From: Paracoccaceae bacterium
GTDB lineage: Bacteria; Pseudomonadota; Alphaproteobacteria; MPNO01; UBA830
Direction of reading: 5' to 3'
DNA: 64,000 bases
NCBI GenBank assembly: GCA_047638395.1
Contig: JBLIMV010000002.1
Coordinates: forward strand, 162,787 to 226,786
Part shown: in pieces, positions 37,684 to 60,852 of the stretch
Position numbering within the stretch: the first letter of the stretch is position 1
Layout of the letters: every line of letters begins with the position of its first letter
Program-made: the position numbers and the translations under genes
The notes under the pieces: generated by a model
The model's input: the letters and a program-made list of their open reading frames with translations, nothing else
Told to the model about the DNA's origin: nothing
The model's database searches: none

Positions 37684-37767
37684 GTTGATGTCGGGCCGGC
37701 GCAAACACAGACTTTAAGAATCGGGCTATGCGCGATAGCCTGCCGGAAGCCCGACAAAGGATTCTGA

Positions 37768-38199
37768 ATGTTTGCCGCAACCGCCATTACCGTTTTCATC
37801 AGCGCGCTCGTTATTCTGGTGCATTTCGAAATTATGACCTGGCTGACCAAGGCCGCCCGCACGGCCCGGTTGCCAACCCGGATCAGCCTGCTGCTTGGTG
37901 TCTTTGTTCTATTCGCGGCACATTCTCTCGAAGTCTGGATTTTTGCCGGGGGGCTGTATTTCGCGCGCGAAGTTGCTGAGCTCGGCGACCTGACCGGCGC
38001 ATTCGACAGCAGCGCGCGGGATTATCTGTATATATCGCTGGTGAACTACACGACGCTCGGCTACGGCGAAATCGTGCCGACAGGACACCTGCGGACGATC
38101 TGCGGTTTCGAAGCCCTGATCGGCCTGCTGATGATGGCGTGGTCAGCGGCCTTCACCGTGTTCCGCCTGACTGACCGCTGGCGGGCAAACCTGGACTGA
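37768..38199 (+). CDS. two-TM potassium-channel pore-domain protein (Ion_trans_2)
   Basis: Selectivity-filter-like YTTLGYGEIVP between two TM helices. 143 aa. Confidence 0.6.
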   Translation: MFAATAITVFISALVILVHFEIMTWLTKAARTARLPTRISLLLGVFVLFAAHSLEVWIFAGGLYFAREVAELGDLTGAFDSSARDYLYISLVNYTTLGYGEIVPTGHLRTICGFEALIGLLMMAWSAAFTVFRLTDRWRANLD

Positions 38200-38222
38200 G
38201 GATCAGGCTTTAGGCCAGGCGA

Positions 38223-39599
38223 TCAGGTTCCCTCAAACAGGTTCCGGAAGAACGGGACGAGAAACCGTCCACCTGGGTCATGTGTCTGCCGAAGGGCCAT
38301 GAACTGGCCGATCTCCGGCCCGAATGCCCTCTGCGCCTGTGCCGGCGTGATGGCCGGCGTCTGGTTAAACAGCGGCGTGCCATTATGGCGGCTGCAGAAC
38401 GCGTCATAGGCGACCAGGTAATCTTCCCAGCCCGGACCGCCGGTCGAAACGGGATCGAGCGTCAGCGCCGCGGATTTTCGTGTATAGGAAAACAGCGATT
38501 GGCGATCTTCGGCGATGTGATAGCCGACATTTAACAGATCGCAACGGAAGCCGGTTTCGGCATAATAGTCGCGGCAGAACCTGAAATAGGCGCGCAGCGT
38601 GTCCGGATATTCGGCCCGCGGGAACGCCCAGATGCTGAACGTATAGGCGCTGAAGCCCCCCACATCCGGGTAGCGGATGATCTGGTCGGCGGGGCTCGTC
38701 GATGCTCCCCGCAGCAGCTTCGCCGCCATCAGTAACGTCAGCCGGTTCATCATGTTCAGCAGAAAACCGCGCAGGCGCCGAAACGGCACATAGCCGGTCA
38801 CGATTTTGCTGAAGCCCGGGCCGAGCTTGCTCCAGACGAAATTCCGCAGGCGCCATTGCCACGCATTGGCCCGCACCGGCGGCGTACCCTCCGAGCGGTA
38901 TTCGACCATTACGCGGTCAAGGAACGGAAACAGATAGAGCATGATTGACCGGTCGCCGGCGACCAGGTCGTCCAGATTGTCGGCGAATTCATCCACGCTG
39001 TAGCGAATATGTTCGACCGCCATCGGTGCGATTTCCTTGACCCGGAACGTGACCTCGTAAATCACGCCAAGCATGCCGTAGCTCGATCGCATCGCCGCCA
39101 TCAGATCGCCATCGGCCTCCGTGACCTCTATCAGGTCGCCCCCAGCATCGACGGCCTTGATGCCGATTGCGTAGGACGCAACCTGACCGAACTCCCAGCC
39201 TTCGGCCGCAGAGAAGAACGACGCATCCTTGGTGCCGCCGCAGGCACCGCTACCCACCGTCATGTTGCCGATCTCGACATTGACGTAGAATTGCAACCCT
39301 TCGCGTTCGAGCGCCTTCGCGGCATCGATATGCAGCACCCCCGCCTGCATGGTGATGGTCATCGCCACGCGGTCGATCCCAAGGATTTTGTTCATCTGTG
39401 TCATGTCGATGACGGTGCCGCCCTCGTTCACGACGCAGCGGGTCGTCGAATGGTGCGAACCCTTCACCCGCACCGGGCCAGGGTATTTTCCCCGATCCTT
39501 AACAATCCGGACGATGTCCGCGACGCTTCGTGCATATTCGAGCGAATATGCGTGATACGTGACTTCGCGCTTCCAGTTCTGCAGACGCACCTGTGCCAT
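38223..39599 (-). CDS. FAD-linked oxidase (D-arabinono-1,4-lactone / gulonolactone oxidase-like)
   Basis: PCMH-type FAD-binding N-terminal domain (VRVKGSHHS) and an ALO-like C-terminal domain. Confidence 0.65.
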   Translation of the reverse strand: MAQVRLQNWKREVTYHAYSLEYARSVADIVRIVKDRGKYPGPVRVKGSHHSTTRCVVNEGGTVIDMTQMNKILGIDRVAMTITMQAGVLHIDAAKALEREGLQFYVNVEIGNMTVGSGACGGTKDASFFSAAEGWEFGQVASYAIGIKAVDAGGDLIEVTEADGDLMAAMRSSYGMLGVIYEVTFRVKEIAPMAVEHIRYSVDEFADNLDDLVAGDRSIMLYLFPFLDRVMVEYRSEGTPPVRANAWQWRLRNFVWSKLGPGFSKIVTGYVPFRRLRGFLLNMMNRLTLLMAAKLLRGASTSPADQIIRYPDVGGFSAYTFSIWAFPRAEYPDTLRAYFRFCRDYYAETGFRCDLLNVGYHIAEDRQSLFSYTRKSAALTLDPVSTGGPGWEDYLVAYDAFCSRHNGTPLFNQTPAITPAQAQRAFGPEIGQFMALRQTHDPGGRFLVPFFRNLFEGT

Positions 39600-39810
39600 G
39601 GCTGAAATACCTCCCTGTTTTCAGCACCGGCAACGCGGTTTTGAGCCTACCTCATAACGCACCGACGCCCGGCGCTGTCCAAATCATGCCCTGTTGCGAT
39701 CCGGCCTGTAAAGCCGCCGGCCGCTGTAGCATGAGGGTTGCGATGGCAGCACGGGCGTCTATCCTGACCGCGTGCGTGCTGACATGGACCATTCGGGAGG
39801 CGACGGAATG

Positions 39811-40419
39811 AAACGATATTCGGTGTTATTCTGCCTCGCCCTTCTCGTGGCATTGACCTCGGGGCCGTCGGTCACCTTCGCCCATGGCGGCGGACTTGAC
39901 GGTCAGGGATGTCATCACAACCGCAAAGCAGGCGGATATCACTGCCACCGGGGGCCGCTGGCGGGTAAATCTTTCGAGTCCAAATCCGATGCCGCACGCG
40001 CGCTCAGCCGACCGGTCACACCGCGCACGATCGTCGGCAAAGCCAACATTATCGACGGCGATACGATTGAAATCTCCGGCAGGCAGATCGATCTTTTCGG
40101 TATCAGTGCACCAAAACCCGGTCAGTTCTGCGAAGCCGCGGGCAAAAAATGGGCCTGCGGCCAGAACGCCACCTTTGGCCTGTCAGCCATTATCGAGCGC
40201 CAATGGGTCCACTGTCATCCCAAAACACCGGATACTAATGGGCGGATCGCTGCCGTCTGCAGGCTGGCAGGCGCCAACGGGCCCGACGTCAATGCCGCCA
40301 TGGTCAGGCAGGGATGGGCGCAGGCCGACCGGCGCGGCACCGCCCCGTATCTGACGGAAGAAAAGGCGGCACGCGCTGCGAAGGCCGGTATCTGGGTCGG
40401 TCAGGACAGCGCGCGTTAA
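39811..40419 (+). CDS. secreted YHYH-domain / staphylococcal-nuclease-like (thermonuclease) fusion protein
   Basis: GGAGG RBS. Signal peptide. HGGGLDGQGCHHNRKAGGYHCH (YHYH-like). An SNase-like region (IIDGDTIEI...). Confidence 0.55.
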   Translation, partial: KRYSVLFCLALLVALTSGPSVTFAHGGGLDGQGCHHNRKAGGYHCHRGPLAGKSFESKSDAARALSRPVTPRTIVGKANIIDGDTIEISGRQIDLFGISAPKPGQFCEAAGKKWACGQNATFGLSAIIERQWVHCHPKTPDTNGRIAAVCRLAGANGPDVNAAMVRQGWAQADRRGTAPYLTEEKAARAAKAGIWVGQDSAR

Positions 40420-40450
40420 GGGCCGCTGCCCCGCACCGGGATCACCGCAC

Positions 40451-41296
40451 TTAAGACTGACCGCCGCTGCAATTGATCACGTCGCCGGTGACGAAGCTTG
40501 CATCATCGGAGGCCAGAAAGGCGACGGCGGCTGCATGCTCATCCGGCACGCCACGCCGGGACAGGGATTGCTGAGTGCGGATGTCCGCGACCATTTCCTG
40601 GCGGAATTCATCAGCCTGTTCCTGCGCCAGATCTTCCGCCATGACACCCTGGCCAAGGGACAGTCGCGGCGTTATCCGGTCCGGAATATCGGTGCCGCCC
40701 GGCGACAGCGTGTTCACCCGAATGCCATACCGCCCGTATTCCATGGCCAGCACCTTACCGAGCGCGAGGATCCCCCCTTTGCTGGAGGCATACGGCGCGC
40801 GATAGAGACCGCGCACCGATTGCGAACCGATGTTGATGATCGAGCCTGCATTCTGTTCCATCATGATCGGCAGCACGGCCCGGCACCCCCACAGGGTCGG
40901 CATCAGCGAGCGCTCGAGCTCCAGCTTCACCTCGTCTTCGCTGTAGAGATGAAACGGCTTCATCCAGATCGTACCGCCCACATTGTTGACGAGCACATCG
41001 ATCCGCCCGAACGCCGTCATCGCCGCGTCCATCATCTCCTCGGCGCCGGCAAATGTGCTCAGATCGACAAGCGTCTTGATCGCCTCGACACCATGCGCAA
41101 GCAGTTCATCGGTCGTCTGGGTGGCGCCCTCATCGACCCGGTCGGCAACGACAATTTTCCCGCCTTCCTGTCCGAGCCGCCGGGCAATCGCCTGCCCGAT
41201 GCCCTGACCGGCGCCGGTGACGACACATACCTTATTCTTTAACCGGCGCGCGCCGGCGGCTTTTGGATCGAGTTCATCAGTCACATTCAACTCCAT
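40451..41296 (-). CDS. SDR-family oxidoreductase
   Basis: VCVVTGAGQGIGQAIA cofactor motif. Catalytic YxxxK region. Confidence 0.75.
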   Translation of the reverse strand: MELNVTDELDPKAAGARRLKNKVCVVTGAGQGIGQAIARRLGQEGGKIVVADRVDEGATQTTDELLAHGVEAIKTLVDLSTFAGAEEMMDAAMTAFGRIDVLVNNVGGTIWMKPFHLYSEDEVKLELERSLMPTLWGCRAVLPIMMEQNAGSIINIGSQSVRGLYRAPYASSKGGILALGKVLAMEYGRYGIRVNTLSPGGTDIPDRITPRLSLGQGVMAEDLAQEQADEFRQEMVADIRTQQSLSRRGVPDEHAAAVAFLASDDASFVTGDVINCSGGQS

Positions 41297-41356
41297 TGGT
41301 AGCGCGCCGCCAAAACCCCGGGCCTGAGCGATGCTGTTTTTGATTTTCGATTCAGG

Positions 41357-42640
41357 TCAGATCGACCTATGGGCGACGCCCTTCTTGACCTTCATAGGTT
41401 CTCCGGGCGCCTCGTTAAACGGTATCTCTCGGGGCAGCTCGAACGATGCGGAACGCACAGCCTGCGCGGCCTCATCAAGGCCGGGCGGCGGCTTGCCCGT
41501 CTCCAGGTCGCGTGCGGAATCCTGCAACTGACGCCGCGCCATGAAGATGGCCTTGTCGGTCATGACCAGGTTCTCTCTGGCCCGGTCCTGAACCGGACCC
41601 ATGCTTTCCTGCAGCGCTGCATCCTGCATGGCGATACCTTTGACACCGCTAAAGGATTTCCGCGTCTTTTGCGCGTCACGGTCCATCATGTAGTCGTTGT
41701 CCCTGTTCATCACCGGCCGGGACGTCCCCGGAATCAGCTCGACATGGAGGCTGCCGCCGTTGCGCATAACGTCGAGTTCCAGCTCGTTCAGCGGGCGCGA
41801 CGGGTGATAGGAAAATGTCCAGGCAAAGCAGTTCTCGTCGTCGATCGGCACCCAGGCATGACCGTGCAGCGGGTTGTCGCCGTAAGGCGGCACGATCGTA
41901 TACCAGGGCATGATCCACGGCGTGATGCGCCAGTAGTATTTATCGTCGCCCGCGTTACGCCGAACGCCGATGTTCAGGCCACCCGGCGATTCGACGATCT
42001 CAAATTTGGGTGTCAGGTCGGACAGGTGATAGTCCGACCCCTTTGATCCGTGGTGCAACGGATCGCTCCGCAACTCGCCGCTATGCAGAAACGCCACATG
42101 ACTGGAATCGATTCCGCCTTCCAGCGCCTGGAGATAATTGCATTCCTCCAGGCGCTTCGAATGGTAGCGCTGGTCCGCGGGCACCGTGGTCCATTCAAAC
42201 GCCGGTGGCGGCGGCTGTTCCTCCGGCGGGCCCATATAGGTCCAGATGATTCCACCGCGCTCCACGCACGGATAAGACGTCAGCGCGACCTCCTGGCAAA
42301 ACCGGCTCTCCGGGGGCTCGGACGGAATTTCCAGACACTGGCCGGCGACGTCAAATTTCCAACCGTGATAGGGACAGCGAATACCCCCCTCTTCAACGCG
42401 GCCGAACCACAAAGAAACCCGGCGATGGGCGCAGAATTCTTCTATCAGGCCAAGCTTGCCATCGGTGTCGCGAAACGCCAGCAGATGTTCAGAGAGCAGC
42501 TTGACGCGAACAGGCGGGCAGTCGTTCCCGGCAACCTCTTCGGATAACAGGAACGGTATCCAGTAACGGCGAAACAGGTTGCCGGTCGGTGTCCCTGGAC
42601 CGGTTTCGGTAACCAGCTTGTTTCTCTCAGCAGTCAGCAC
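41357..42640 (-). CDS. Rieske [2Fe-2S] oxygenase alpha subunit (phthalate-dioxygenase / VanA-like, single-component class)
   Basis: CAHRRVSLWFG...CPYHGWKF Rieske motif. Mononuclear-iron region. Confidence 0.75.
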   Translation of the reverse strand: MLTAERNKLVTETGPGTPTGNLFRRYWIPFLLSEEVAGNDCPPVRVKLLSEHLLAFRDTDGKLGLIEEFCAHRRVSLWFGRVEEGGIRCPYHGWKFDVAGQCLEIPSEPPESRFCQEVALTSYPCVERGGIIWTYMGPPEEQPPPPAFEWTTVPADQRYHSKRLEECNYLQALEGGIDSSHVAFLHSGELRSDPLHHGSKGSDYHLSDLTPKFEIVESPGGLNIGVRRNAGDDKYYWRITPWIMPWYTIVPPYGDNPLHGHAWVPIDDENCFAWTFSYHPSRPLNELELDVMRNGGSLHVELIPGTSRPVMNRDNDYMMDRDAQKTRKSFSGVKGIAMQDAALQESMGPVQDRARENLVMTDKAIFMARRQLQDSARDLETGKPPPGLDEAAQAVRSASFELPREIPFNEAPGEPMKVKKGVAHRSI

Positions 42641-43194
42641 GGGTTTTCTTCCTTTCTGGCGTGGTATTCGCAGATTCCTGATGCGCCAGGGCCCGCGCGC
42701 GGCCCTGCTCGGGAACTATAGAACGACACGACACGAGCGACCATTCAGAAGAGATCCACCATCCAAAAAATTCACCCATACCCCCTAATTTTCGATGGAT
42801 TCAGTAGACAGGAAAATGTTTTTCCTAACAGTATCGGTTACAAATTATATTTGGTTTTGTCCGGTTCATTAGTGTTTTTTGAAAAATTATTTTTCAAAAG
42901 AGCATTTAGATGAATATTGATATAAAAACAGGAACGAATTCCATAAATTGTTTTCCGTATTACAAATCTTTACAATTTTACGTGCATCCCAATTTAATTT
43001 TGGGTTATGGTCATTGCAATAACAGTCGTTCTGGGGTTGCCGGTCCGGGCAGTCAGATGACTTTTTGGCGTTCGTTGGCAGGCGACGTTTGAAAGTGAAA
43101 TCTCTCAAACGGGTCTGCCGTGCGCGAACCTCCAGAATAGAACGAGCGACACCATGCCCGACAGGGTTGGGCACGGTGTCGATGACTGAGGGTA

Positions 43195-45270
43195 GTGTTG
43201 GTGCGTATAGAATATCCGAGCAATGAAGCGGCACGCGTCGAGGCGCTTCATCGATTTAGAATACTGGACACCCCCCCTGAAATAAATTTCGACCGCGTTA
43301 CAAAGCTGGCGAGCGATATCTGTGAAGCGCCGATTGCGCTGATTTCACTGATCGACAGCGAACGGCAGTGGTTCAAATCGAAAGTCGGTCTGGACGCTGG
43401 AGAAGCCCCGAGAGACATCGCATTTTGTGCACACGCGATCCTCGACGACGAATTGTTCATTGTGCCGGATGCAGCCACCGATGACCGGTTCAAAGACAAC
43501 CCTTTCGTCCTGGGATTCCCGCACATCCGCACCTATATGGGCGCGCCACTCATTACCAAAGCAGGCTATCGGCTCGGAACGCTTTGCGTCATATATCCTG
43601 AGATTACGCCCGTTCGTGAATCGTGGAAGGAGCGCATAACCTCCCTTGCCGCGATTGTGGTCGATGAACTCGAATGCCGGGTTGCGCTGGCAGATGTTGA
43701 AGAAAATGCGGACAGATCCCGCGACATCGTCGAAACCGCCGGTGAGTGGATCTGGGAAACCGACGAAAATCATCGATACATCTATCATTCCGACAACGGC
43801 CCGAGACGGATATTTCCGACATCTCAACTCCTCGGACGAACGCGCTGGGAACTTCCCGGCGTTGATACCGACATCGCCCAGTTTGACGTACTCAAGGAAG
43901 CGCTCGACCAGTATCAACCGTTCCGTGATTTTGAATATGTTTTTACAGACGCACAGGGGAACCATCAGCATCGGAAAGTAAGTGGCAATCCGGTCTTTGC
44001 TGAAAACGGCGGTTTCAAGGGCTATCGTGGAACATCGGCAGATATCACGGAGCGGGTAGAAACGTTCGAAAACCTGAAAGCAGCGACAGTCGCGGCAGAA
44101 CAGGCAAATAATGCGAAATCGGCGTTTCTCGCGAATATGAGCCACGAGCTCCGGACACCGCTTAATGCGATTATCGGCTTCTCGGACATGATGCTGAGCG
44201 CAACACCGGATGCTTTCTCAAAACCGGAATATGTCGAGTATACGAATGACATCAAGCATTCCGGCGAAGACCTGCTGAAAATCCTGAATGACGTTCTTGA
44301 CCTTTCGGAGGCCGAAGCCGGTCACGCCGAACTTAATGAAGAGCCAGTTGATGTTGCCGCCATCATCGATACATGCGTGCAACGTTTATTGTTTGAGGCC
44401 GAGGCGGCGAACCTCTTCGTTACCACGCTATATGCAGACGACATACCGCGCCTGGTGGCTGACGACCGCAAACTGAAACAGATCCTGGTCAATCTGCTGT
44501 CCAACGCGATTAAATTTACACCATCGCCGGGCGTGATAACCGTATCCGCCGATTTTTCGGCCGACTCCGGACACCTGATCAAGGTGTCCGACACCGGGAT
44601 CGGCCTGGCATCTGAAAATTTTGATAACGTCATTGCCCCTTTCAAGCAACTGGACTCCGGTTTTAACCGGAAATATGGCGGCACCGGTCTTGGCCTGCCC
44701 CTCGCCGTTTCATACACGGAGATGCATGGGGGCACCCTGAGGATCTTGAGCGAGGTGGGCGCCGGCACAACGGTCGAAATCCGGTTACCACCCGACAGAG
44801 CCATTCAGTCGGGAGATCAGGGCATGGATGCAACCCTGTCGCTGGACGGGGCTATGCAGCTGATTTCCGGGGAGGAACAGGCCCGGTCCTGCATCATTAC
44901 GGACCCGAGATTGCCGGACAATCCGATTGTTTATGTCACGCCTGAATTCGAAAAACAGACAGGCTACCCACAGGACGAGGTTATCGGCCGCAATTGTCGT
45001 TTTCTCCAGGGACCCAAAACAAGCGCGGGCGCCATCGCAAGCATCAGACACGCAATAGATAATGTTCTGCCGGTGACCACCGAAATTCTGAACTACCGGA
45101 AGGATGGCAGCCCCTTCCGCAACGTCGTGTCAATTCGACCAACGTTCGATATCCACGGCAATGCGGTCTCTTTTGTGGCGATCCAGTCGATAACGGACGT
45201 GGACGGATCGGACGTGCATGATGCAGGCCAGATCGACGATCCCGAAGACGGAGCCGGCACGCCCCACTGA
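43195..45270 (+). CDS. GAF-PAS-HisKA-HATPase sensor histidine kinase with a C-terminal LOV domain
   Basis: H-box MSHELRTPLNAI. G-box GGTGLGLP. C-terminal LOV signature GRNCRFLQG within an ...IVYVTPEF...LNYRKDG... context. GTG start. Confidence 0.75.
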   Translation: MLVRIEYPSNEAARVEALHRFRILDTPPEINFDRVTKLASDICEAPIALISLIDSERQWFKSKVGLDAGEAPRDIAFCAHAILDDELFIVPDAATDDRFKDNPFVLGFPHIRTYMGAPLITKAGYRLGTLCVIYPEITPVRESWKERITSLAAIVVDELECRVALADVEENADRSRDIVETAGEWIWETDENHRYIYHSDNGPRRIFPTSQLLGRTRWELPGVDTDIAQFDVLKEALDQYQPFRDFEYVFTDAQGNHQHRKVSGNPVFAENGGFKGYRGTSADITERVETFENLKAATVAAEQANNAKSAFLANMSHELRTPLNAIIGFSDMMLSATPDAFSKPEYVEYTNDIKHSGEDLLKILNDVLDLSEAEAGHAELNEEPVDVAAIIDTCVQRLLFEAEAANLFVTTLYADDIPRLVADDRKLKQILVNLLSNAIKFTPSPGVITVSADFSADSGHLIKVSDTGIGLASENFDNVIAPFKQLDSGFNRKYGGTGLGLPLAVSYTEMHGGTLRILSEVGAGTTVEIRLPPDRAIQSGDQGMDATLSLDGAMQLISGEEQARSCIITDPRLPDNPIVYVTPEFEKQTGYPQDEVIGRNCRFLQGPKTSAGAIASIRHAIDNVLPVTTEILNYRKDGSPFRNVVSIRPTFDIHGNAVSFVAIQSITDVDGSDVHDAGQIDDPEDGAGTPH

Positions 45271-45679: not shown

Positions 45680-47383
45680 TTGCAATCTCGTAGCTTCCTT
45701 CCGAGCAGTCTTGCGTTCGTTATCTGGAGTATCGCGTTACTGAACCCAGTTCCGGCGTTATCCCAACTTCAGCAACTGCCGAGCAGCGCCGAGCCCGGCC
45801 GACAGGCGCCGCGGCCGCCCGAATTGCCGCCCGCGCTCACCGACCTGGAGTGGAGCGTGCAGCTGCCGCCAGGCGCAGAACCACCGCCGTCATTGAAATC
45901 GGAACCGCTGGAGCTCAAGGATCTTCGCCTGACCGGCGTGACCGCCTATTCGCGCGCCCAGCTTATTGACCTTTTCAGAGACGATCTCGGCAAAACGATC
46001 ACGTTTGAGCGATTCTATGCGATCGCGCGGGCGATACAGCAGCGTTACCGCAGAGACGGATATATTCTGAGTTTTTCCTACGTTCCGCCGCAATCGGTCG
46101 AAGATGGCGTCTTTACGATTGCGGTTGTCGAAGGATTTGTCGAAGCGGTGCAGATAGGCGATGTCGAAGGCACCCTGAAGGACACGCTGGCCAACGCGCT
46201 TAGCCCCATCACAGCGATCAGACCGCTAAACGTCCGGACGCTGGAACGTTACCTGCTCCTGGCGAACGACCTTGCCGGGGTCAAAGTCACCGCCGTGCTG
46301 CGACCGTCGAAATCAACCCAGGGCGCGACTGTCCTGGTCGCCAAGGTTCGCCGCACACCTTTCGGTGGCGGCGCCTCGATCGACAACCGGTCATCGGATT
46401 TTACCGGCCCATGGGGTTCGAGCGTTTCAGCGTCCGCGAACTCCCTGCTCGGGACCGGCGAACGGCTGGGTCTGACCCTGTCGGAAGCGGGCGGGCTAAA
46501 GGAAAAGAAGGCTGTGTCGGCGACCTATCAGCAACCCTTCGGTACAGAGGGCCTGCGGATCGATTTAGGCGTCAGTCAAACCGACAGTGAACCCGGCTCG
46601 ACCCTCGCGGAATTCGAGGTCGAAACGTCGACCCTGGAACTCACCTCGGATATTTCCTATCCCGTCATCCGCTCACGGGCGGAAACCCTGTCTATCGGTG
46701 GTGGTTTTACCTTTCGAAATGCCGAAGTCGACCTGCTCGGCCAGCCATTTAACCAGGACCGGCTTCGGCTGCTCCGGGCAAACGTGAATTACAGCAATGG
46801 CTCGGTGCTGGGTGGCAGCACCCGGATCATTCTGGGTGCGACCCAGTCGATGCAGATCTGGAGCTCTACAGACCCCAGCACGGACACAACATCCCGCGGC
46901 GACGCCGATATGGATTTTGCCAAACTGAATCTGGATGTCGTCTATGCCCGACCGATTGGCGCGGGAGTAACGGCACAGATCTCGATGACGGCCCAATACG
47001 CGACCCGCCCGACCCCGGCGTCCGAGGAATTCTCGCTCGGCGGAGACGGGTTTGGCCGGGCCTATAATTCCGGCGAACTGAGCGGCGAAGACGGTATCGG
47101 GTTTTCGGCGGAATTCAGCCGCAGCCTCGGCATCCGGCACCCGCAACTTCGCTACCTGAATGCCTATGGCTTCTACGATATCGGCAAGGTGTGGGACCGG
47201 GCATCGGCGTCGTCCCTGGGACCCGCGGATTCGCTGGCATCTGCCGGTGCCGGGCTGCGCGCGGGTTTACCATTCGGGTTAACCCTGCGGCTTGAATACG
47301 ATTTCCCGCTGACCCGCGAACCGAGCCACCAGAACGGCGAAAAGCACGGACGGCTCTTCTTTTTTGCGAGCTGGACGTACTAG
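45680..47383 (+). CDS. two-partner-secretion outer-membrane transporter (TpsB; ShlB/FhaC/HecB family)
   Basis: TTG start. Signal peptide. POTRA region. C-terminal beta-barrel ending in an aromatic residue. 567 aa. Confidence 0.75.
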   Translation: MQSRSFLPSSLAFVIWSIALLNPVPALSQLQQLPSSAEPGRQAPRPPELPPALTDLEWSVQLPPGAEPPPSLKSEPLELKDLRLTGVTAYSRAQLIDLFRDDLGKTITFERFYAIARAIQQRYRRDGYILSFSYVPPQSVEDGVFTIAVVEGFVEAVQIGDVEGTLKDTLANALSPITAIRPLNVRTLERYLLLANDLAGVKVTAVLRPSKSTQGATVLVAKVRRTPFGGGASIDNRSSDFTGPWGSSVSASANSLLGTGERLGLTLSEAGGLKEKKAVSATYQQPFGTEGLRIDLGVSQTDSEPGSTLAEFEVETSTLELTSDISYPVIRSRAETLSIGGGFTFRNAEVDLLGQPFNQDRLRLLRANVNYSNGSVLGGSTRIILGATQSMQIWSSTDPSTDTTSRGDADMDFAKLNLDVVYARPIGAGVTAQISMTAQYATRPTPASEEFSLGGDGFGRAYNSGELSGEDGIGFSAEFSRSLGIRHPQLRYLNAYGFYDIGKVWDRASASSLGPADSLASAGAGLRAGLPFGLTLRLEYDFPLTREPSHQNGEKHGRLFFFASWTY

Positions 47384-47498
47384 TCCCAAAATTTTCGTTT
47401 TTCATCTATTTTTTCAATGACTTACAAGACCTGAAGTCCTGCCGCCGCTTAACGCTGCGTAAACCTAGATTGTTCATACTAAATCCGTACCGAACCGG

Positions 47499-50400
47499 TT
47501 GTTCGCTCAGGATTTATCAGTGGTCGAGAGTTCGAAGTATTCACGCGCGCGTTCAGGACGCGGGAAACGGCACCGGCACTCGTCCGGATGGCGACGGCTG
47601 AGCAATGCTGGCGAACTGTGCCTGCGGCTCGTCCTCGGTGCGGCACTTACCGGTTCGCTACCGATCCAGGTTTTTGCGAACCCGCAGGGCGGCGCCGTCA
47701 CGGAGGGATCAGCGACGATCCAGCAATCGGGCAACCGTGTCGATGTTCACCAGGCCACCGACCGAGCCGTAATCGACTGGCGGTCGTTTTCGATCGCCCC
47801 CGGTGAGATCACCCAGTTTCACCAACCTTCGGCAGGCTCTATTGCGCTGAACCGCGTAACAGGCGCCGACCCGTCCCGCATTTTCGGCACGTTGCGTGCG
47901 AATGGCCGCGTCTTTCTGATCAACCCCAATGGAATCATGTTCGGTGCCGGGTCCCGCGTGGACGTCTCCGGTCTGGTCGCGACGACATCCAATATCCGCA
48001 ATGAGGATTTTATGGCCGGACGGATGGAATTTTCCATCCCGTCGCTGAATCCGCAGGCTTCCGTCGTTAATGAGGGGGATATCAGTATCGCGGATGCCGG
48101 ATATGCCGCCCTTGTCGCACCGCATGTACGAAATTCCGGCGTCATAAACGCCCGGCTCGGCCGGGTCACACTGGGCGCCGCGGATGCCTTCGCCATCGAC
48201 CTCTACGGCGATGATCTGGTGACCTTTCGGGTGGGTGTCGGGCGAACACCGGTAGATGCCGACGGTAACCCGGTCGACAGCCTTATTGATAACCAGGGCA
48301 GCATTCTGGCCGGGGGCGGAATCGTGCGGCTCGCGACACACAATGTAGAAGCCGTGGTCCGCAACGTGATCAATACCGATGGCGTGATCTATGCCAATAC
48401 GATCGAGCGACGGGACGGAAAGATCATCCTTGGTGCGGCCGGCAAGGGCGCTATTTCGGCGAAGGGCGAACTCTCCGCGACGGGCGGGTCAATTGAAATC
48501 GCGGGCAACGAAGATATTTCGCTGTCCGGAACACGTATCGCGGCAACTGATGTGGCAATCAACGCCGATGCCGACAAATCCGGCGCCGGCGACCTGAACG
48601 CCGGGACAAGCGGCGGCGATGCGATCCTGACCGATATCGATATCGATACAGCCGCGGGCAATGATGAAGGCGGCCGCGTGGTGATAACCGGCGACCGTGT
48701 CGCCATATTGGGCGCTTCGACTATCGATGCTTCGGGCGAGGCGGGCGGCGGCGAAATTCTCATCGGCGGCGATTTTCAGGGCAATGGCGTAACCCGAAAC
48801 GCCGATGCGACAATCGTCGGCGAAGATGTCCGCCTGAAGGCCGATGCGCTTGAGTTCGGCAACGGCGGGCGCGTGATTTTATGGGCGGACGGATTTACCC
48901 GCTTTCATGGCGCGATCTCGGCTATCGCAGGGCTGACGGCCGGCGATGGCGGCTTTACCGAGGTGTCGGGCAAACAGAACCTCGACTTCCAGGGCAGCGT
49001 GGATGTGACCGCCGCGGCGGGCGAAATCGGCACGCTTCTTCTCGATCCCGTCGATATTATCGTTTCAGCAGACAACACGGATGGCGCCACAGGCACGGGT
49101 CTGGGCAGCATCCTGTTCGCAGACGCTCCGGGCCTGAATCCCTGGAACGTCAGTCCGGCAGCTCTGGATGCCGTGAGCGGCAATATTCTGTTGCAGGCAA
49201 CCAATGACATCACGATCAGCAACGACATCAACCTGACCACACTGGGTGCGACATTCACGGCGACGGCGAATAACGACATCATCGTCAATGCCGGCGTGAC
49301 AACCAATAATGCGGCGATCACCCTGACGGCCGATGACGATGGTAGCGGTGTTGGCGAGCTTACCATTGCCGCCAGCCAGACCGTGACCAGTGGTAATAAC
49401 GCCGTCAACATCTCGGCCAACGACGTCGCGTTTACGGGCGGGATCGACAGCGGCACCGGCACAACCACGATCCTGATATCCGATGGCGGCACCATAAAAC
49501 TCGGCGGCACCCCCAGCGGCAACATGACCATTTCCGGGTCGGAACTTCAGAACATTACCGCCGCCAACCTGATCATCGGCGACGCGACGAACGGCAATAT
49601 CGAGGTCAAGAACGTCAGCGCGGCGGAGAGCAACAATGTGGGCACGGTCACGCTGAACGCCACCAAAGCAGGGGCCACCGTCGATATGAGCACCGGTGGC
49701 GGCAATGTCTTCAATGCCCTGGTGATCAATGCCGACGCCGCGGTTGCGACAAAAATCCTGACCACCGATACCGGCGGGCTGACGATCAATTCAGGCAACG
49801 GCGTAACGATTTCAGACAATGTAACGTCAGCCGGTGCGACAGTCATCGACGCCGACACCGACAATAACGGAACCGGTACATTCACGGTGACCAGCACATT
49901 CGCGCTGAACACGGCGGGCAATTCGTTGTCCATCACTGCGGACGACATCAACATCGCCGGCACCATCAACACTGGCGCCGCGGCGACCACGATACTGATC
50001 TCCGACGCGGGAACGATCGGATTCGGCAACAGCGCCCGGAATATGACGATATCCGGCGCAGAGCTTCAGAATATCACGGCCACAGGCCTGACCATCGGCG
50101 ACGCGACGAATGGCGACATCACGGTTGACGGCATTTCGGCGGCAAACAGCAACAACATCACCGGCACGGTCACGCTGAACGCGACGAATGCCGCCGCCTC
50201 GATTTCGATTTCGAACGCGGGGTCGACGTTCAACGCGCTGACCGCCAACGCGGCCAACACCATTACAGGCAATATTCCGCTGGTGACGGATACCGGCGCG
50301 CTGACACTGACTGCAGGGGCCGGAATTACGTTCAACGACACGGTTACAACAGCCGGCGCGGCTGTTTTCGATGCCGACAGCGATAACAACGGCACGGGCG

Positions 50401-53400
50401 ATTTCACGCTGAGCAATGCCCTCAATACATCAAACAACACGCTGACGATCACGGCCAATGACGTCGTGCTGTCCAACACGATCAATACCGGCACGGCCGC
50501 CACGACAATCCTGATCTCCGACGGCGGAACCATCGGGCTGGGCGCGACAGCGGGTGGCATGACGATTTCCGGCGCCGAGCTGCAAAACATCACCGCGACC
50601 GGGCTGACCGTCGGGGATGCCACCAGCGGCAACATCACGGTCAACGGGATCACGGCGGCAAACAGCAACAATATCTCGGGTACGGTCACGCTGAATGCGA
50701 CACAGGACAACGCGACCCTCTCGTTTTCGGGCGCCGCCTCGACATTCAACGCCATTGCCGCGAATGCGGATGACGGGATCAGTATCAGTCAGAATATCTC
50801 AACCGATGTCGGCGGTCTCGCGCTCGACGGCGATGCCGACAACGCGGCGGATATCAACGACAATCTCACGTTCTCCGCCGGGGTGACACTGAGCAGTTTC
50901 GGAAATATCACGCTTGATGCGACGATCGGGAATATGTCCGGCGCTGGCGCGCTTACACTGAATGCGCGCAGCGGGTTGACCTTCAATGACAGCCTGGCGA
51001 CCGCCGGGGCAACAGCGTTGAACGCCGACACCAACAATAACGGCAGTAGTATGCTGACCCTCGCCGCAGGCGCTGCACTCGCCACCGGCGGCAACACCCT
51101 GTCGATAACGGCAAGTGACATAAACGTCTTGGGCACGATCACCAGCGGGGCTGCAGCAACCACAATCCTGGTATCCGCGGGCGGCAGCATCGGGCTTGGC
51201 GCCACGGCCGGCAGCATGACCATCGACGGGACCGAGCTGCAGAACATCACGGCGAACGGCCTCACCATCGGCGACACGTCCGCCGGGAATATAACCGTCA
51301 ACGGCATCACAGCAGCCAACAGCAACAACATTACCGGTACGACGTCGCTTGTAGCAGGCAGCAATGGCGCAGCAGTCACCTTTGCCACGGCGGCCTCCAC
51401 GTTCAATGCGCTAACGGCCAGCGGTGACAATCGCGTTATCGTCAATGTCGCCATCACCACGGATGCGGGCGACCTGGACCTGAACGGCGACCTCGACAAC
51501 GCTGCCGATACCAACGACGACATCGCCATAGCTGCAGGCCTGACCCTGACCTCCGCCGGGTCGATCAAACTGGCGGCGACGAACACGGGCATATCGGCAA
51601 GTGGTGCGCTCACGCTGAATGCACAGAGCGGTGTGACGCTGAATGACAGCCTGGTTGTCGGAGGTGCCGCGGTCATCGATACCGATACGGACAATAACGG
51701 GATCGGCGATTTCACGATCAACGCATCGCGCACACTGACGACGAACAACAACACGTTGACGATCACGGCAAACGACCTGGCCCTTTCGGGTGCATTGAAC
51801 AGCGGATCTGCGGCGACCACGGTCCTGACATCCGACGGTGCATCGATTGGCCTTGGCGCAACAGCCGGGGGCATGACAATCGATGGTGCCGAGCTTCAGA
51901 ACATCACAGCGACAGGCCTGACCATTGGAGATTCGACAACCGGAGGCATCACGGTCGACGGGATTACCGCGGCCAATAGCAACAATATCACGGGGACCGT
52001 CACGCTGAACGCGGCGGCCGACAATGCCACCGCATCGTTCGTGACAACGGCATCGACTTTCAATGCGCTCGACGTCAATGCGGATGACCGGATCTCGGTC
52101 AACGTCAACATCACAACCGACATCGGAGATCTCGCGCTGGATGGCAACGTGGATAACGCCGCAGATGTGAACGATGATATTGCGTTTGCTGCAGGTGTCA
52201 CGCTGTCTTCCGCTGGATCTCTCACCCTCGATGCCACGACCGGGAACATGACAAGTGCCGGGGGGCTGACCCTGAACGCCAATAACAGCGTTACCCTGAA
52301 TGATACCCTGACGACGGCCGGCGCGACGGTTATCGACGCCGATGACGACACGAACGGTAGTGGTACCTTCATCGTCGTTGCATCAAAAACGGTGAATTCC
52401 ACCAATAACTCCCTCCAGATCGTTGCGAACAAAATCGACCTTGCCGGGGAGCTGAACAGCGGCACCCAGTCAACCACGTTGACGGCAACGAACGGCGCCG
52501 CCATCGACCTCGGGTCCGCAACCGACATCGCTGCCAATACGTTCGAACTCTCGAACAGCGAACTCCAATCCATCACGGCGGCAAATCTGACAATCGGCGA
52601 TGGGACGGCCGGCGCGATCACGGTATCCGCTGACGTAACGCCCGGTAACGCCGCGGGCGCCAACGTCATCACACTCAATCTTGTCACGGGTTCGACAATG
52701 ACCGCCTCGGCCGGCGCCATAATAGAGACGAACCTGTCGGTCGTGGCCGCCGGTGCTGTCACATTCAGTGCCGCAACCACGGATACCGACGTAATCGCCA
52801 TCGATACCTCCACCGGGGATATCGCCTATACAGATATCGACGGGTTCACAGTCGACACCGTTGGCGCTGTCACCGGTGTCGACACGGCGGCTGGCGCAAT
52901 CACGCTCATCGCGACGACCGGCAATATCATTGTGGCCAATACCGCAGCCGCCAACGATATCGGCGCGACGGGCCTCATCACGCTCAAGGCATCCGCAGAC
53001 AACGCGGCAATCAATATACTGACGGGCGCAGACACTGAATCTACGGGCGGCGCGCACAGCTACACCGCCGACGACATCGAAATAAGCGGAACGATCACGG
53101 CAACCGGACAGGACGTTACGCTGGCTTCAAGCACAGCCGGCGACGCCATCGATGTGGGCGACCCCGGCGGCGGGGGCGACAACGTGGCAAATACGCTGGA
53201 ACTTGCGGGCGCCGAGCTACAGAACATTACGGCGACCAACCTGAATATTGGTGGCGCTGCCGCCGGCAATATGACGATCGAGGGCATTTCTGCCGCCAAC
53301 AGCAATAACATCTCGGGTCTGGTAACGCTTACCGCCAACGGAAACGGGTCGACGGTGACATTCCAGAACGCGGCGTCGACGTTCAACGCGCTGAGTGCTC

Positions 53401-54668: not shown

Positions 54669-54677
54669 GGTGATGAG

Positions 54678-57254: not shown

Positions 57255-57417
57255 GCCAGCGAATTGCGCCGTAATCCCTGAATTCAGCGCTTTGTGGTTA
57301 ACCGCCCTTAACCATTTCGCTTCAGGAACGCTTAAGACCTGTTGCTTATGGTTTCGTCATAACCTGCTCAACCGGGCCAACCGGTGGGCCACATAAGACC
57401 AACAAAGGAGCGATGAG

Positions 57418-58146
57418 ATGAAGCGGATGATCCAGACCAGTATGGCAGCGATGCTGCTCGCGACGACGGCCTTTTCGGCACACGCCAAACAGGGCGCCTA
57501 TGAAATGGTGGTTCTCCACGTAGAGGGAACCGCGCTGAAACGTGGCGCTGTTATCGATGGAAACCAGACACTGACGCTTAAGAGCGGGGCCAAGGTCACG
57601 CTGGTGGGCGCAGATGGAAAGACCGTAACCGTTCAGGGTCCGTCGTCGGGCAAACCGGCCGGACGTGGCAGCAACGGCGCGAAATCCTCCGGCAAGGTTG
57701 CGGCTATTCTCGGCGCATTGCTGTCCAACGAAGAGCGCTCTACCCGCGCCCTCGGGGTTGTCCGCTCCGCCAGTGCGACCGGCTCGGAAACATTGCCCGA
57801 CGCATGGGCCGTGAACGTGGGACAGTCCGGCACGAAATGTGTGACTGCAGATGTCGTCAAATTATGGCGCCCGGATGCAACCGGTGCCGCAAAACTGCAA
57901 ATTCGCAAGGCACAGAGCGCTCACAGCGCCAAGGCAGATTGGCCTGCCGGTCAGGCGTTCCTGCCGATAAACGCGAAGACTTTTCAGTCCGGTCAGAACT
58001 ATATCATCAGCGTGAATGGACGTAGTTCTGAAATGAAGTTCAACGTCATGCCGGCTGGACTGAACAATCCGACCGAGCAGGCTGCATGGATGGCTCGCCA
58101 CAATTGCCGGGACCAGGCGCTCGCCATGGTCGACGGTATTCGGTAG
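57418..58146 (+). CDS. secreted hypothetical protein
   Basis: Signal peptide MKRMIQTSMAAMLLATTAFSAHA. AGGAG RBS. No recognisable domain. Confidence 0.5.
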   Translation: MKRMIQTSMAAMLLATTAFSAHAKQGAYEMVVLHVEGTALKRGAVIDGNQTLTLKSGAKVTLVGADGKTVTVQGPSSGKPAGRGSNGAKSSGKVAAILGALLSNEERSTRALGVVRSASATGSETLPDAWAVNVGQSGTKCVTADVVKLWRPDATGAAKLQIRKAQSAHSAKADWPAGQAFLPINAKTFQSGQNYIISVNGRSSEMKFNVMPAGLNNPTEQAAWMARHNCRDQALAMVDGIR

Positions 58147-58225
58147 ATGCATTGAGGCGGACCGACACCCATATTTCTGGATGGTCAGCGTCGCCGCCGA
58201 ACAATTCCGACAATCTACAAGCAAT

Positions 58226-58256
58226 CTCAGGGCGGGATCTTTTCTCCCGCCCTGAG
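58226..58256 (+). terminator. stem-loop (probable terminator) after the secreted-protein gene
   Basis: 12-bp perfect stem CTCAGGGCGGGA-tcttttc-TCCCGCCCTGAG. Weak U-tract. Confidence 0.4.
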
Positions 58257-58276
58257 GTATTTCCGGTGACGCCGTA

Positions 58277-60574: not shown

Positions 60575-60626
60575 CGAACCTGCTTTGTAGCGGGTTTCAC
60601 AACTATCAACGCGATCCGGGGGAAAT

Positions 60627-60680
60627 TGGTGGAGCCGAGGAGGATCGAACTCCCGACCTCAGCGTTGCGAACGCTAGGGT
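60627..60680 (-). tRNA. tRNA-Ala(CGC)-like 3' fragment (anticodon arm to CCA); probable att site rather than an intact tRNA
   Basis: Minus strand reads UAGCG-UUCGCAA-CGCUG, AGGUC, GGGAG-UUCGAUC-CUCCU, CGGCUCC-A-CCA (U70 present). The upstream 5' half does not form acceptor or D arms. Confidence 0.5.
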
Positions 60681-60852
60681 GGGTAGTTTACCCATGATTC
60701 CCCGAGCACCCCTAGAAATTTCCGAACGCTACTTTCCCTTTGTTTCTGCCGATTAATTGGGTTACTTTTAACGCTGTGGTCATTTCTGATCATTACTGGA
60801 CGTTACCCTCAACGGGTGCCCTTTAGGTGCCCTAGTAAAAACAGGCACAGAC

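What the first reader, a model, noticed from the sequence alone, without database searches (positions are those of the whole stretch)
43195..45270. Histidine kinase with a LOV (blue-light) domain placed C-terminal to the catalytic core
Architecture is GAF - PAS - HisKA - HATPase_c - LOV. The canonical flavin-adduct motif GRNCRFLQG sits in a full LOV context (IVYVTPEF...LNYRKDG...). Known LOV histidine kinases carry LOV at the N-terminus. A C-terminal LOV after the ATPase domain is an unusual arrangement and could modulate the kinase or partner binding by light. This kinase is the paralogue of the CHASE2 kinase on the other side of the TPS locus.
Basis: seen in the sequence. Interest (0 to 1): 0.6.

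Follow-up and report, generated by a model that had tools for sequence, protein, structure and literature searches.

The report
Histidine kinase with tail-end LOV sensor
A marine Paracoccaceae bacterium encodes a soluble sensor kinase with a complete blue-light (LOV) flavin sensor fused after its catalytic domain instead of before it, a rare reversed layout found here only in one small family of uncultured relatives and suggesting an untested, different way for light to control a kinase.

Summary
The ORF at 43195-45270 (+) encodes a 691-aa protein with the domain order GAF, PAS, HisKA, HATPase_c, LOV. GRNCRFLQG lies at residues 598-606, and every canonical flavin-contacting residue is present.

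The arrangement is real and conserved. At least 10 independent metagenome assemblies, 57-72% identical, carry it. dN/dS on the LOV core (0.07-0.30) is as low as on the kinase core.

It is also rare. Among the 150 best of 1.84 billion representative proteins, only this family has kinase-then-LOV, while 50 have LOV-then-kinase. None of 80 GTDB genome loci and none of the 75 other metagenome loci has it.

New findings:
- The C-terminal module is a whole "short LOV" protein. It has an N-cap helix and a LOV core but no J-alpha helix. Its best fold match is DsLOV, and its nearest sequence relatives are stand-alone 137/171-aa LOV proteins.
- The module sits where the closest relatives of the kinase part carry a receiver domain.
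- A 12-residue, variable, fixed-length linker joins it to the kinase.
- One lineage has Gly in place of the adduct-forming Cys.

The claimed link to the CHASE2 kinase and the TPS locus is not supported. That block is an integrase-bearing insertion absent from orthologous loci.

Light control of the kinase is inferred, not shown. I rate this a new variant of a known kind, of moderate interest.

The parts
43195..45270 (+). HK-LOV gene (691 aa; the start is possibly GTG 43201, giving 689 aa)
   Evidence: ORF list. An identical protein is annotated in an NCBI Paracoccaceae MAG (P0001). It is called at 689 aa in an independent Logan assembly.
43288..43635 (+). GAF domain (aa 32-147)
   Evidence: Pfam PF01590, E 1.9e-10.
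43741..44058 (+). PAS domain (aa 183-288); no LOV motif
   Evidence: Pfam PAS_4, E 2.8e-7.
44113..44322 (+). HisKA/DHp domain (aa 307-376). The phospho-acceptor His317 lies in HELRTP (nt 44143-44160).
   Evidence: Pfam PF00512, E 2.5e-19. Translation. H317 is invariant in the family.
44461..44796 (+). HATPase_c catalytic domain (aa 423-534) with N, G1, F and G2 boxes: LLSNAIKFT, DTGIG, APF, GGTGLGL
   Evidence: Pfam PF02518, E 3.1e-24. The box residues are invariant in alignment A1.
44797..44832 (+). 12-residue linker (aa 535-546). Its sequence varies, its length is invariant, and it is predicted to be disordered.
   Evidence: No indels in A1. Identity 8-58% and dN/dS 0.16-0.59. pLDDT below 50.
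44809..44826 (+). TCGGGAG-N8-ATG (Met544). This is a possible fossil ribosome-binding site and start codon of a formerly separate short-LOV gene.
   Evidence: Met544 aligns with the initiator Met of stand-alone short LOVs. The same heptamer and spacing occur upstream of the stand-alone gene in L009. The ATG is present in 3 of 5 lineages.
44833..44892 (+). LOV N-cap / A'alpha region (aa 547-566, LSLDGAMQLISGEEQARSC)
   Evidence: It aligns with the N-terminus of stand-alone short LOVs. Helices are predicted at 550-556 and 559-562. dN/dS 0.14-0.43.
44893..45192 (+). LOV core (aa 567-666). GRNCRFLQG is at nt 44986-45012, the Cys601 codon at 44995-44997, and Gln664 lies on the last strand.
   Evidence: AF2 pLDDT above 90. 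The Foldseek top hit is DsLOV, TM 0.91-0.94. dN/dS 0.07-0.30.
45193..45267 (+). Acidic Gly/Pro-rich tail (aa 667-691); no J-alpha helix
   Evidence: Not conserved. dN/dS 0.6-0.7. Residues 674-691 have pLDDT below 50, and no helix is predicted after the last LOV strand.

Best explanation
This is a soluble, catalytically competent HisKA-type sensor kinase that takes two kinds of input. GAF and PAS domains feed the DHp helix from the N-terminal side in the ordinary way. A complete short-LOV photosensor hangs from the end of the ATP-binding (CA) domain on a short flexible tether. That sensor has an N-cap helix and a LOV core but no J-alpha helix.

The module most likely arose when a stand-alone short-LOV gene was fused to the 3' end of a GAF-PAS kinase gene. 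It took the place that close relatives give to a receiver domain.

Proposed mechanism (inferred):
1. Blue light forms the FMN-Cys601 adduct.
2. The signal passes through Gln664 and the beta-sheet to the N-cap, as in DsLOV and VVD.
3. This changes either how the two LOV modules of the kinase dimer pair with each other, or how each docks on its own CA/DHp. Aureochrome works in a comparable way: its C-terminal LOV holds the effector in the dark and releases it and dimerises in the light.
4. The mobility of the CA domains changes, and with it the kinase/phosphatase balance toward an unlinked response regulator.

Shown: domain order, LOV residues, conservation under purifying selection, kinship to short LOVs, rarity, absence of J-alpha.

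Inferred: flavin binding, the photocycle, the coupling to kinase activity and its sign.
For: - Domain order and LOV identity.
- Kinase motifs are intact and invariant.
- No TM segment: the highest 19-residue hydropathy is 1.4.
- The layout is conserved in P0002-P0008, P0124 and L091-L095.
- The LOV core and N-cap are under purifying selection like DHp/CA, while the linker and tail are relaxed.
- The nearest LOV relatives are stand-alone 137/171-aa proteins at 55-61% identity, N-cap included.
- On a core-only NJ tree the family is monophyletic in 34/40 bootstraps, and its sister is a pure short-LOV clade in 33/40.
- The module model has pLDDT 79 overall and above 90 in the core, with N-cap helices, a disordered linker and tail, and no J-alpha.
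- The best fold match is DsLOV. [quoted passage not shown]
- The closest relatives of the kinase part are GAF-PAS-HisKA-HATPase-REC hybrids, with REC at 571-688 where LOV sits here.
- Aureochrome provides a precedent for effector-then-LOV signalling (PMC4721966).
Against: - There is no biochemical evidence for flavin binding, a photocycle or light-dependent kinase activity.
- A disordered, sequence-variable tether could mean there is little or no allosteric coupling.
- One lineage (P0004, L091-L094) has Gly at the adduct position, so canonical adduct chemistry is not universally required in the family.
- The full-length AF2 model was too poor (pLDDT 54) to show any LOV-kinase contact.
- No response regulator lies nearby to define an output.
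- The stand-alone short LOVs are not encoded next to kinases.
Confidence: 0.5

Rival explanations
1. The tethered LOV does not regulate the kinase allosterically. Instead it is a light-switched docking site that recruits another protein to the kinase, such as a response regulator, an anti-sigma-type factor or a free short LOV. This is how stand-alone short LOVs are thought to signal.
For: - The module equals a whole short-LOV protein.
- Short LOVs are proposed to act through partner proteins (PMC4335406).
- The tether is flexible and variable.
- The kinase is an orphan with no adjacent partner.
Against: - No candidate partner is conserved next to the gene in the window, L001, L002 or L092.
- The invariant linker length suggests a geometric constraint relative to the kinase itself.
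Confidence: 0.2
2. The C-terminal LOV is mainly a flavin redox/oxidative-stress sensor rather than a light sensor. It signals through flavin reduction to the neutral semiquinone.
For: - A whole lineage has Cys replaced by Gly but keeps every other flavin-contacting residue and stays under purifying selection.
- Several sister short LOVs carry Leu, Pro or Thr at that position.
- Cys-less LOVs can signal by photo- or chemical reduction (PMC4682037).
Against: - The window protein and most lineages keep the Cys within the canonical GRNCRFLQG.
- Cys-less LOVs still respond to light (PMC4682037), so this is not exclusive of light sensing.
- At least part of the family comes from marine metagenomes.
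Confidence: 0.15
3. The fusion has no functional consequence for the kinase. One version: the LOV part is also, or mainly, made as a separate short LOV from the internal TCGGGAG-N8-ATG (Met544). Another version: the junction is an assembly or frameshift artefact.
For: - An SD-like motif plus an ATG lies exactly at the position of the short-LOV initiator Met.
- This is present in 3 of 5 lineages.
Against: - The artefact version is excluded. The continuous ORF recurs in at least 10 independent assemblies at 57-100% identity with no stop or frameshift.
- The internal Met is missing in the L002 and L092 lineages, yet the fusion persists with an invariant linker length.
- Both halves are under purifying selection.
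Confidence: 0.08

Closest known systems
Canonical bacterial LOV histidine kinases (Brucella LOV-HK, Caulobacter LovK, Erythrobacter EL346, Pseudomonas syringae LOV-HK; engineered YF1)
   Same: A LOV flavin photosensor and a histidine kinase lie in one polypeptide. The LOV core is 45-50% identical to these.
   Different: - The order is reversed. In the canonical proteins LOV is N-terminal and drives the DHp through a J-alpha/coiled-coil linker.
- Here LOV follows the CA domain, has no J-alpha, and is joined by a disordered 12-residue tether.
- The LOV is phylogenetically nearer to short LOVs than to the LOVs of LOV-HKs.
DsLOV / VVD-type short LOV proteins (N-cap, no C-terminal helix), and an uncharacterised clade of 137/171-aa stand-alone LOVs
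   Same: - The module anatomy is identical: N-cap, core, no J-alpha.
- DsLOV is the best fold match (TM 0.91-0.94, rmsd about 1 A).
- The 137/171-aa clade is the nearest in sequence (55-61%, N-cap included) and is the sister group.
   Different: - Those proteins are free-standing, and the 137/171-aa ones sit in a DinB / FAD-monooxygenase / amidohydrolase context.
- Here the module is covalently attached to a kinase.
Inverted (effector-then-LOV) photoreceptors: aureochromes (bZIP-LOV), PAL (PAS-ANTAR-LOV), Methylocystis AraC-HTH-LOV
   Same: They share the rare effector-N-terminal, LOV-C-terminal topology (PMC4721966, PMC12797116, PMC4416707). In these proteins signalling must run through the LOV N-terminal side or through docking and dimerisation.
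   Different: - Their effectors bind DNA or RNA and are not enzymes.
- Aureochrome and PAL LOVs keep a J-alpha helix. This one does not.
- There is no sequence kinship beyond the LOV fold.
GAF-PAS-HisKA-HATPase-REC hybrid kinases (P0010, P0091, P0113, Cycloclasticus P0080)
   Same: The first ~540 residues share the same architecture and are 38-47% identical. Overall length is similar (694-703 aa).
   Different: Their C-terminal domain is a receiver (571-688). Here it is a LOV (567-666), and no receiver is present.

Membership tests
LOV domain (flavin-binding PAS subclass) | PAS fold | tested here: met
   Pfam PAS_9, E 6e-21. AF2 core pLDDT above 90. Foldseek hits to LOV structures at E about 1e-14.
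LOV domain (flavin-binding PAS subclass) | GXNCRFLQ motif with the adduct-forming Cys | tested here: met
   GRNCRFLQG at aa 598-606 with Cys601. Note that the P0004/L091-94 lineage has Gly here.
LOV domain (flavin-binding PAS subclass) | Flavin-contacting Asn/Arg/Gln set (AsLOV2 N449, R451, Q454, R467, N482, N492, Q513) | tested here: met
   N600, R602, Q605, R618, N633, N643 and Q664 are aligned and conserved.
LOV domain (flavin-binding PAS subclass) | Binds FMN/FAD and shows a reversible blue-light photocycle | not testable with these tools
   This needs the expressed protein and spectroscopy.
HisKA-type sensor histidine kinase | H-box His in the DHp, plus N, G1, F and G2 boxes in the CA domain | tested here: met
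   H317ELRTP. LLSNAIKFT, DTGIG, APF and GGTGLGL are invariant in A1. Pfam HisKA and HATPase_c.
HisKA-type sensor histidine kinase | Autophosphorylation and transfer to a cognate response regulator | not testable with these tools
   No REC-domain ORF was found in the 64-kb window or in the orthologous loci. The partner is unknown.
Canonical LOV-HK photoreceptor class | LOV lies N-terminal to the DHp and is coupled through a J-alpha/coiled-coil linker | tested here: not met
   LOV starts 33 residues after the end of HATPase_c. No helix follows the core.
Short LOV protein (DsLOV/VVD type) | N-cap plus core without a J-alpha helix | tested here: met
   PMC4335406.
Short LOV protein (DsLOV/VVD type) | Stand-alone, with no fused effector | tested here: not met
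   It is fused in-frame to a 546-residue kinase in all family members.
Hybrid histidine kinase | Receiver domain C-terminal to the CA domain | tested here: not met
   There is no Response_reg hit. Relatives have REC at the equivalent position.

The most novel reading that the evidence does not exclude
The fusion is a 'Rosetta stone'. It would reveal that stand-alone N-cap-only short LOV proteins (DsLOV and the 137/171-aa clade), whose signalling partners have never been identified, act by binding the catalytic/DHp region of HisKA-type kinases. It would also mean that a sensor placed after the CA domain can gate a histidine kinase by tethering its ATP-binding domains. That would be a regulatory route distinct from the universal N-terminal-sensor-to-DHp helix transmission.
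Probability: 0.15. Interest if true: 0.75.

Novelty: new variant of a known kind. Interest (0 to 1): 0.5.

Why it matters
Two-component kinases are almost always controlled from the N-terminal side, by helices that run into the DHp. Natural LOV kinases and the optogenetic tools built from them (YF1 and its relatives) follow this rule. A kinase family that has kept a J-alpha-less LOV after its ATP-binding domain, under purifying selection, suggests a second way to couple light to a kinase: a tethered regulator acting on CA mobility or on partner access.

If this were confirmed, it would give a new design principle for light-switchable kinases. It would also give a concrete, testable hypothesis for the unknown partners of bacterial short LOV proteins. 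The Cys-containing and Cys-less lineages within one family offer a natural comparison of adduct-based and semiquinone-based signalling.

Tried and rejected
- **Glantz et al. 2016 LOV census (PNAS):** this would list known architectures, but it is not held by DOI or by PMC id. I therefore cannot exclude that this layout appears in its tables.
- **Full-length AF2 model:** with 8 sequences it reached pLDDT 54 and pTM 0.29. I used it only for rough secondary structure.
- **Split-gene test:** stand-alone short LOVs are not encoded next to kinases. This gives no neighbourhood support for the fusion partner idea.
- **Apparent further kinase-then-LOV cases were false.** L066 and L130 are each two adjacent genes. 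L156 is an N-terminal LOV-PAS-GAF-SpoIIE protein. P0137, P0148, P0162 and similar hits are tandem-LOV proteins without a kinase.
- **GTDB genome scan:** it found no family member, so no cultured host or species name was obtained.
- **Promoter/terminator scan:** no better than shuffled sequence.
- **PADLOC:** nothing for the kinase or the CHAT protein. The CHASE2 kinase had only two marginal matches, E about 1e-3.
- **REC-domain search:** nothing in the window or the orthologous loci.
- **First tree script:** it timed out and was rerun with faster code.
- **Assembly artefact:** rejected, because the ORF recurs in many independent assemblies.
Full report
**1. Observation**

The window has an uninterrupted ORF at 43195-45270 on the + strand, encoding 691 aa. 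Pfam places the domains as follows:
- GAF at 32-147
- PAS_4 at 183-288
- HisKA at 307-376
- HATPase_c at 423-534
- PAS_9 at 573-664

The last domain is a true LOV:
- NCBIfam's YtvA-family and blue-light-kinase LOV models match residues 562-665, at E 4e-35 and 1e-31.
- 148 PDB chains match, all LOV domains, the best at E 2e-30.
- GRNCRFLQG is encoded at nt 44986-45012.
- Against AsLOV2, the residues N449/C450/R451/Q454/R467/N482/N492/Q513 all have identical counterparts: N600/C601/R602/Q605/R618/N633/N643/Q664.

The kinase part has an intact H-box (H317ELRTP) and intact N, G1, F and G2 boxes, all invariant among relatives. No stretch is hydrophobic enough to be a membrane helix.

**2. The arrangement is real and maintained**

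The identical protein is annotated in an NCBI Paracoccaceae MAG on a 234-kb contig. The same locus recurs in an independent read-set assembly.

Full-length relatives at 57-72% identity keep the kinase-then-LOV order: P0002-P0007 and the fragment P0124, with the domain order confirmed. P0008 only looked truncated, and its locus L095 continues into the LOV before the contig ends. Five more loci came from JGI/ENA metagenomes, at least some of them marine.

No member has an indel between the end of HATPase_c and the LOV core.

Per-domain codon analysis of four lineages gives these dN/dS ranges:

| Region | dN/dS |
|---|---|
| LOV core | 0.07-0.30 |
| N-cap | 0.14-0.43 |
| DHp | 0.08-0.31 |
| CA | 0.16-0.38 |
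| 12-residue linker | 0.16-0.59 |
| C-terminal tail | 0.6-0.7 |

The linker is only 8-58% identical between lineages. dS is near saturation, so these values are qualitative.

**3. The arrangement is rare**

I searched residues 420-691 exhaustively against 1.84 billion representative proteins. Among the best 150 hits, two have LOV after the CA domain, and both belong to this family. Fifty have LOV before it. Most of the rest are tandem or multi-LOV proteins.

None of the 80 best GTDB species-genome loci has the fused order, and the family itself is absent from that collection. Counting those 80 together with the 10 loci fetched earlier, 39 show the canonical order. Among the 80 metagenome loci, only the five family members have the fused order. 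Three apparent exceptions were adjacent genes or N-terminal LOV proteins.

The literature describes LOV-N-terminal as the rule and effector-then-LOV as rare. The named exceptions are aureochromes, PAL and a Methylocystis AraC-HTH-LOV (PMC4721966, PMC12797116, PMC4416707). I found no paper describing a kinase-then-LOV protein. The large census of Glantz et al. (more than 6,700 LOVs and more than 100 arrangements, cited in PMC6099885) is not held, so I could not check it.

**4. What the C-terminal module is**

A search with residues 540-691 returns small stand-alone proteins of 137 or 171 aa as its best hits, at 55-61% identity over 80-88% of the query. Their N-terminus (MRYITSLDEALEIITSDEQSRAC) aligns with what looked like the kinase-LOV 'linker' (ATLSLDGAMQLISGEEQARSC). 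The extension from about residue 547 is therefore an entire short-LOV protein, N-cap included.

On a tree of the LOV core alone, the kinase-borne LOVs are monophyletic in 34 of 40 bootstraps. Their sister is a pure short-LOV clade in 33 of 40, not the LOVs of canonical LOV kinases. The comparison sets came from searches seeded with this protein, so the sampling is not neutral.

I modelled residues 535-691 with a 92-sequence alignment. The model has pLDDT 79 overall and above 90 in the core. It predicts N-cap helices at 550-556 and 559-562, a disordered linker (535-546) and tail (674-691), and no J-alpha helix.

Its best structural match is DsLOV (TM 0.91-0.94, rmsd about 1 A). DsLOV is a Rhodobacterales short LOV noted for having an N-cap and no C-terminal extension. 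It dimerises through the N-cap, as VVD does (PMC4335406).

The stand-alone relatives are real genes in a conserved DinB / FAD-monooxygenase / LOV / amidohydrolase context, and none lies next to a kinase.

**5. What the kinase part is**

Outside the family, the closest full-length relatives are GAF-PAS-HisKA-HATPase-REC hybrid kinases of almost the same length. P0010 is 694 aa with REC at 571-683. P0091 and P0113 are 703 aa with REC at 574-688. P0086 is a 553-aa form with no C-terminal domain. The LOV (567-666) therefore occupies the slot that relatives give to a receiver.

The simplest history is that a short-LOV gene was appended to, or swapped into, the 3' end of such a kinase.

A possible trace of this remains in the DNA. 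Met544 aligns with the short-LOV initiator Met and is preceded by TCGGGAG-N8-ATG. The same heptamer and spacing occur upstream of a stand-alone short-LOV gene (L009). An ATG with a GGAG-like motif is present in 3 of 5 lineages. This is suggestive only.

**6. Surroundings**

Upstream genes are collinear with the orthologous loci L001 and L092 at about 90% protein identity. They include a Rieske/LigXa_C oxygenase, an SDR, an SNase-like protein and a FAD-binding oxidase. Synteny ends exactly at the HK-LOV stop codon.

Downstream, the window carries this block:
- TpsB, 45680-47383
- a 2389-aa TpsA, 47499-54668
- TPR-CHAT, 54678-57254
- a 242-aa ORF with no family match
- a CHASE2-PAS kinase, 58277-60574
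- a tyrosine integrase, 60853-62175

None of these is present beside the orthologues. The CHASE2 kinase shares only the DHp/CA core with HK-LOV (47% over 250 aa). It ranks 31st of 121 when kinases are scored against that core. The 'paralogue flanking the TPS locus' reading is therefore not supported, and the block looks like an inserted island.

No receiver-domain ORF occurs in the 64-kb window or in the orthologous loci. HK-LOV is an orphan kinase.

**7. How it most likely works**

Shown:
- A competent HisKA kinase with N-terminal GAF and PAS inputs.
- A complete, selectively maintained, J-alpha-less short-LOV module.
- A tether to the CA domain of fixed length but free sequence.

Inferred:
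1. FMN binds, and blue light forms the Cys601 adduct.
2. The Gln664/beta-sheet/N-cap relay operates as in DsLOV and VVD.
3. The output is a change in LOV-LOV pairing within the kinase dimer, or in LOV docking on CA/DHp. The nearest precedent is aureochrome, where the C-terminal LOV binds the effector in the dark, then releases it and dimerises in light (PMC4721966).
4. The CA domain must swing to reach His317, so tying or freeing the two CA C-termini is a plausible way to shift the kinase/phosphatase balance.

I put about 0.5 on this overall picture. Most of the uncertainty is in steps 3 and 4.

Rivals:
- The LOV is a light-switched recruitment site for a partner (0.2).
- The LOV is mainly a flavin redox sensor (0.15).
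- The fusion has no effect on the kinase, or the LOV is translated separately (0.08).

The redox reading gains some weight from the P0004/L091-L094 lineage. That lineage has Gly at the adduct position in several independent samples, but it keeps all other flavin residues and remains under purifying selection. Cys-less LOVs can still signal through the neutral semiquinone (PMC4682037).

**8. Verdict**

The finding is genuine. The protein is not a member of the canonical LOV-HK class, because the defining N-terminal LOV/J-alpha coupling was tested and is not met. It is not a stand-alone short LOV either. It is a new variant that combines both, in an effector-then-sensor topology previously characterised only for nucleic-acid-binding effectors.

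It is confined, as far as these searches reach, to a small group of uncultured bacteria. The source is a Paracoccaceae MAG, and at least some of the other members come from marine samples. Nothing about function has been measured.

Interest is moderate (0.5). A photoreceptor or two-component specialist would find the placement surprising and experimentally tractable. The mechanism remains inference.

Noticed in passing
window 45680-62175: A block of TpsB (ShlB/POTRA), a 2389-aa TPS-domain exoprotein, a TPR-CHAT protein (858 aa), a 242-aa ORF with no family match, a CHASE2-PAS-HisKA kinase and a tyrosine integrase. It is absent from the orthologous loci L001 and L092, and GC content falls at its far end (0.545 at 60-62 kb). 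It looks like an integrated island that couples a two-partner secretion system to a CHAT protease-like protein and a CHASE2 sensor. No held paper contains all three of the terms CHASE2, CHAT domain and filamentous hemagglutinin.
   Followed up: partly
window 44809-44826: TCGGGAG-N8-ATG lies inside the HK-LOV gene. The ATG (Met544) aligns with the start codon of stand-alone short-LOV genes. The heptamer and its spacing match the region upstream of one such gene (L009). It could be a fossil of the fusion or an internal start.
   Followed up: partly
L091-L094 (P0004 lineage), LOV motif: These orthologues, from several samples (at least two of them marine), read GRNGRFLQDP: Gly replaces the adduct-forming Cys. 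The rest of the LOV is conserved. Sister stand-alone short LOVs show Leu, Pro or Thr at the same position (P0277, P0287, P0289).
   Followed up: partly
L003, L005-L008 (stand-alone short-LOV loci): An uncharacterised clade of 137/171-aa short LOV proteins sits in a conserved context: ABC exporter, DinB, FAD-dependent monooxygenase, LOV, then a convergent amidohydrolase. The 171/173-aa versions overlap the downstream convergent gene by about 110 nt, so their true 3' end is uncertain.
   Followed up: no
window 37713-42658 versus 43195-45270: The upstream neighbours (FAD-binding oxidase, SNase-like, SDR, Rieske/LigXa_C oxygenase) are about 90% identical in protein to those in L001. HK-LOV itself is only about 72-75% identical. 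The kinase is evolving markedly faster than its syntenic neighbours.
   Followed up: no
window 42641-43194: A 550-bp AT-rich intergenic region lies between the divergently transcribed Rieske oxygenase and HK-LOV. The same divergent pairing is conserved in L001 and L092, which raises the untested possibility that the kinase's regulon includes these oxygenase/SDR genes.
   Followed up: no
P0121-P0123 (database hits, not in the window): Giant proteins of 1,611-4,197 aa contain 6-10 tandem PAS/LOV repeats. Three to seven of the repeats carry the NCRF(L/M) adduct motif.
   Followed up: no
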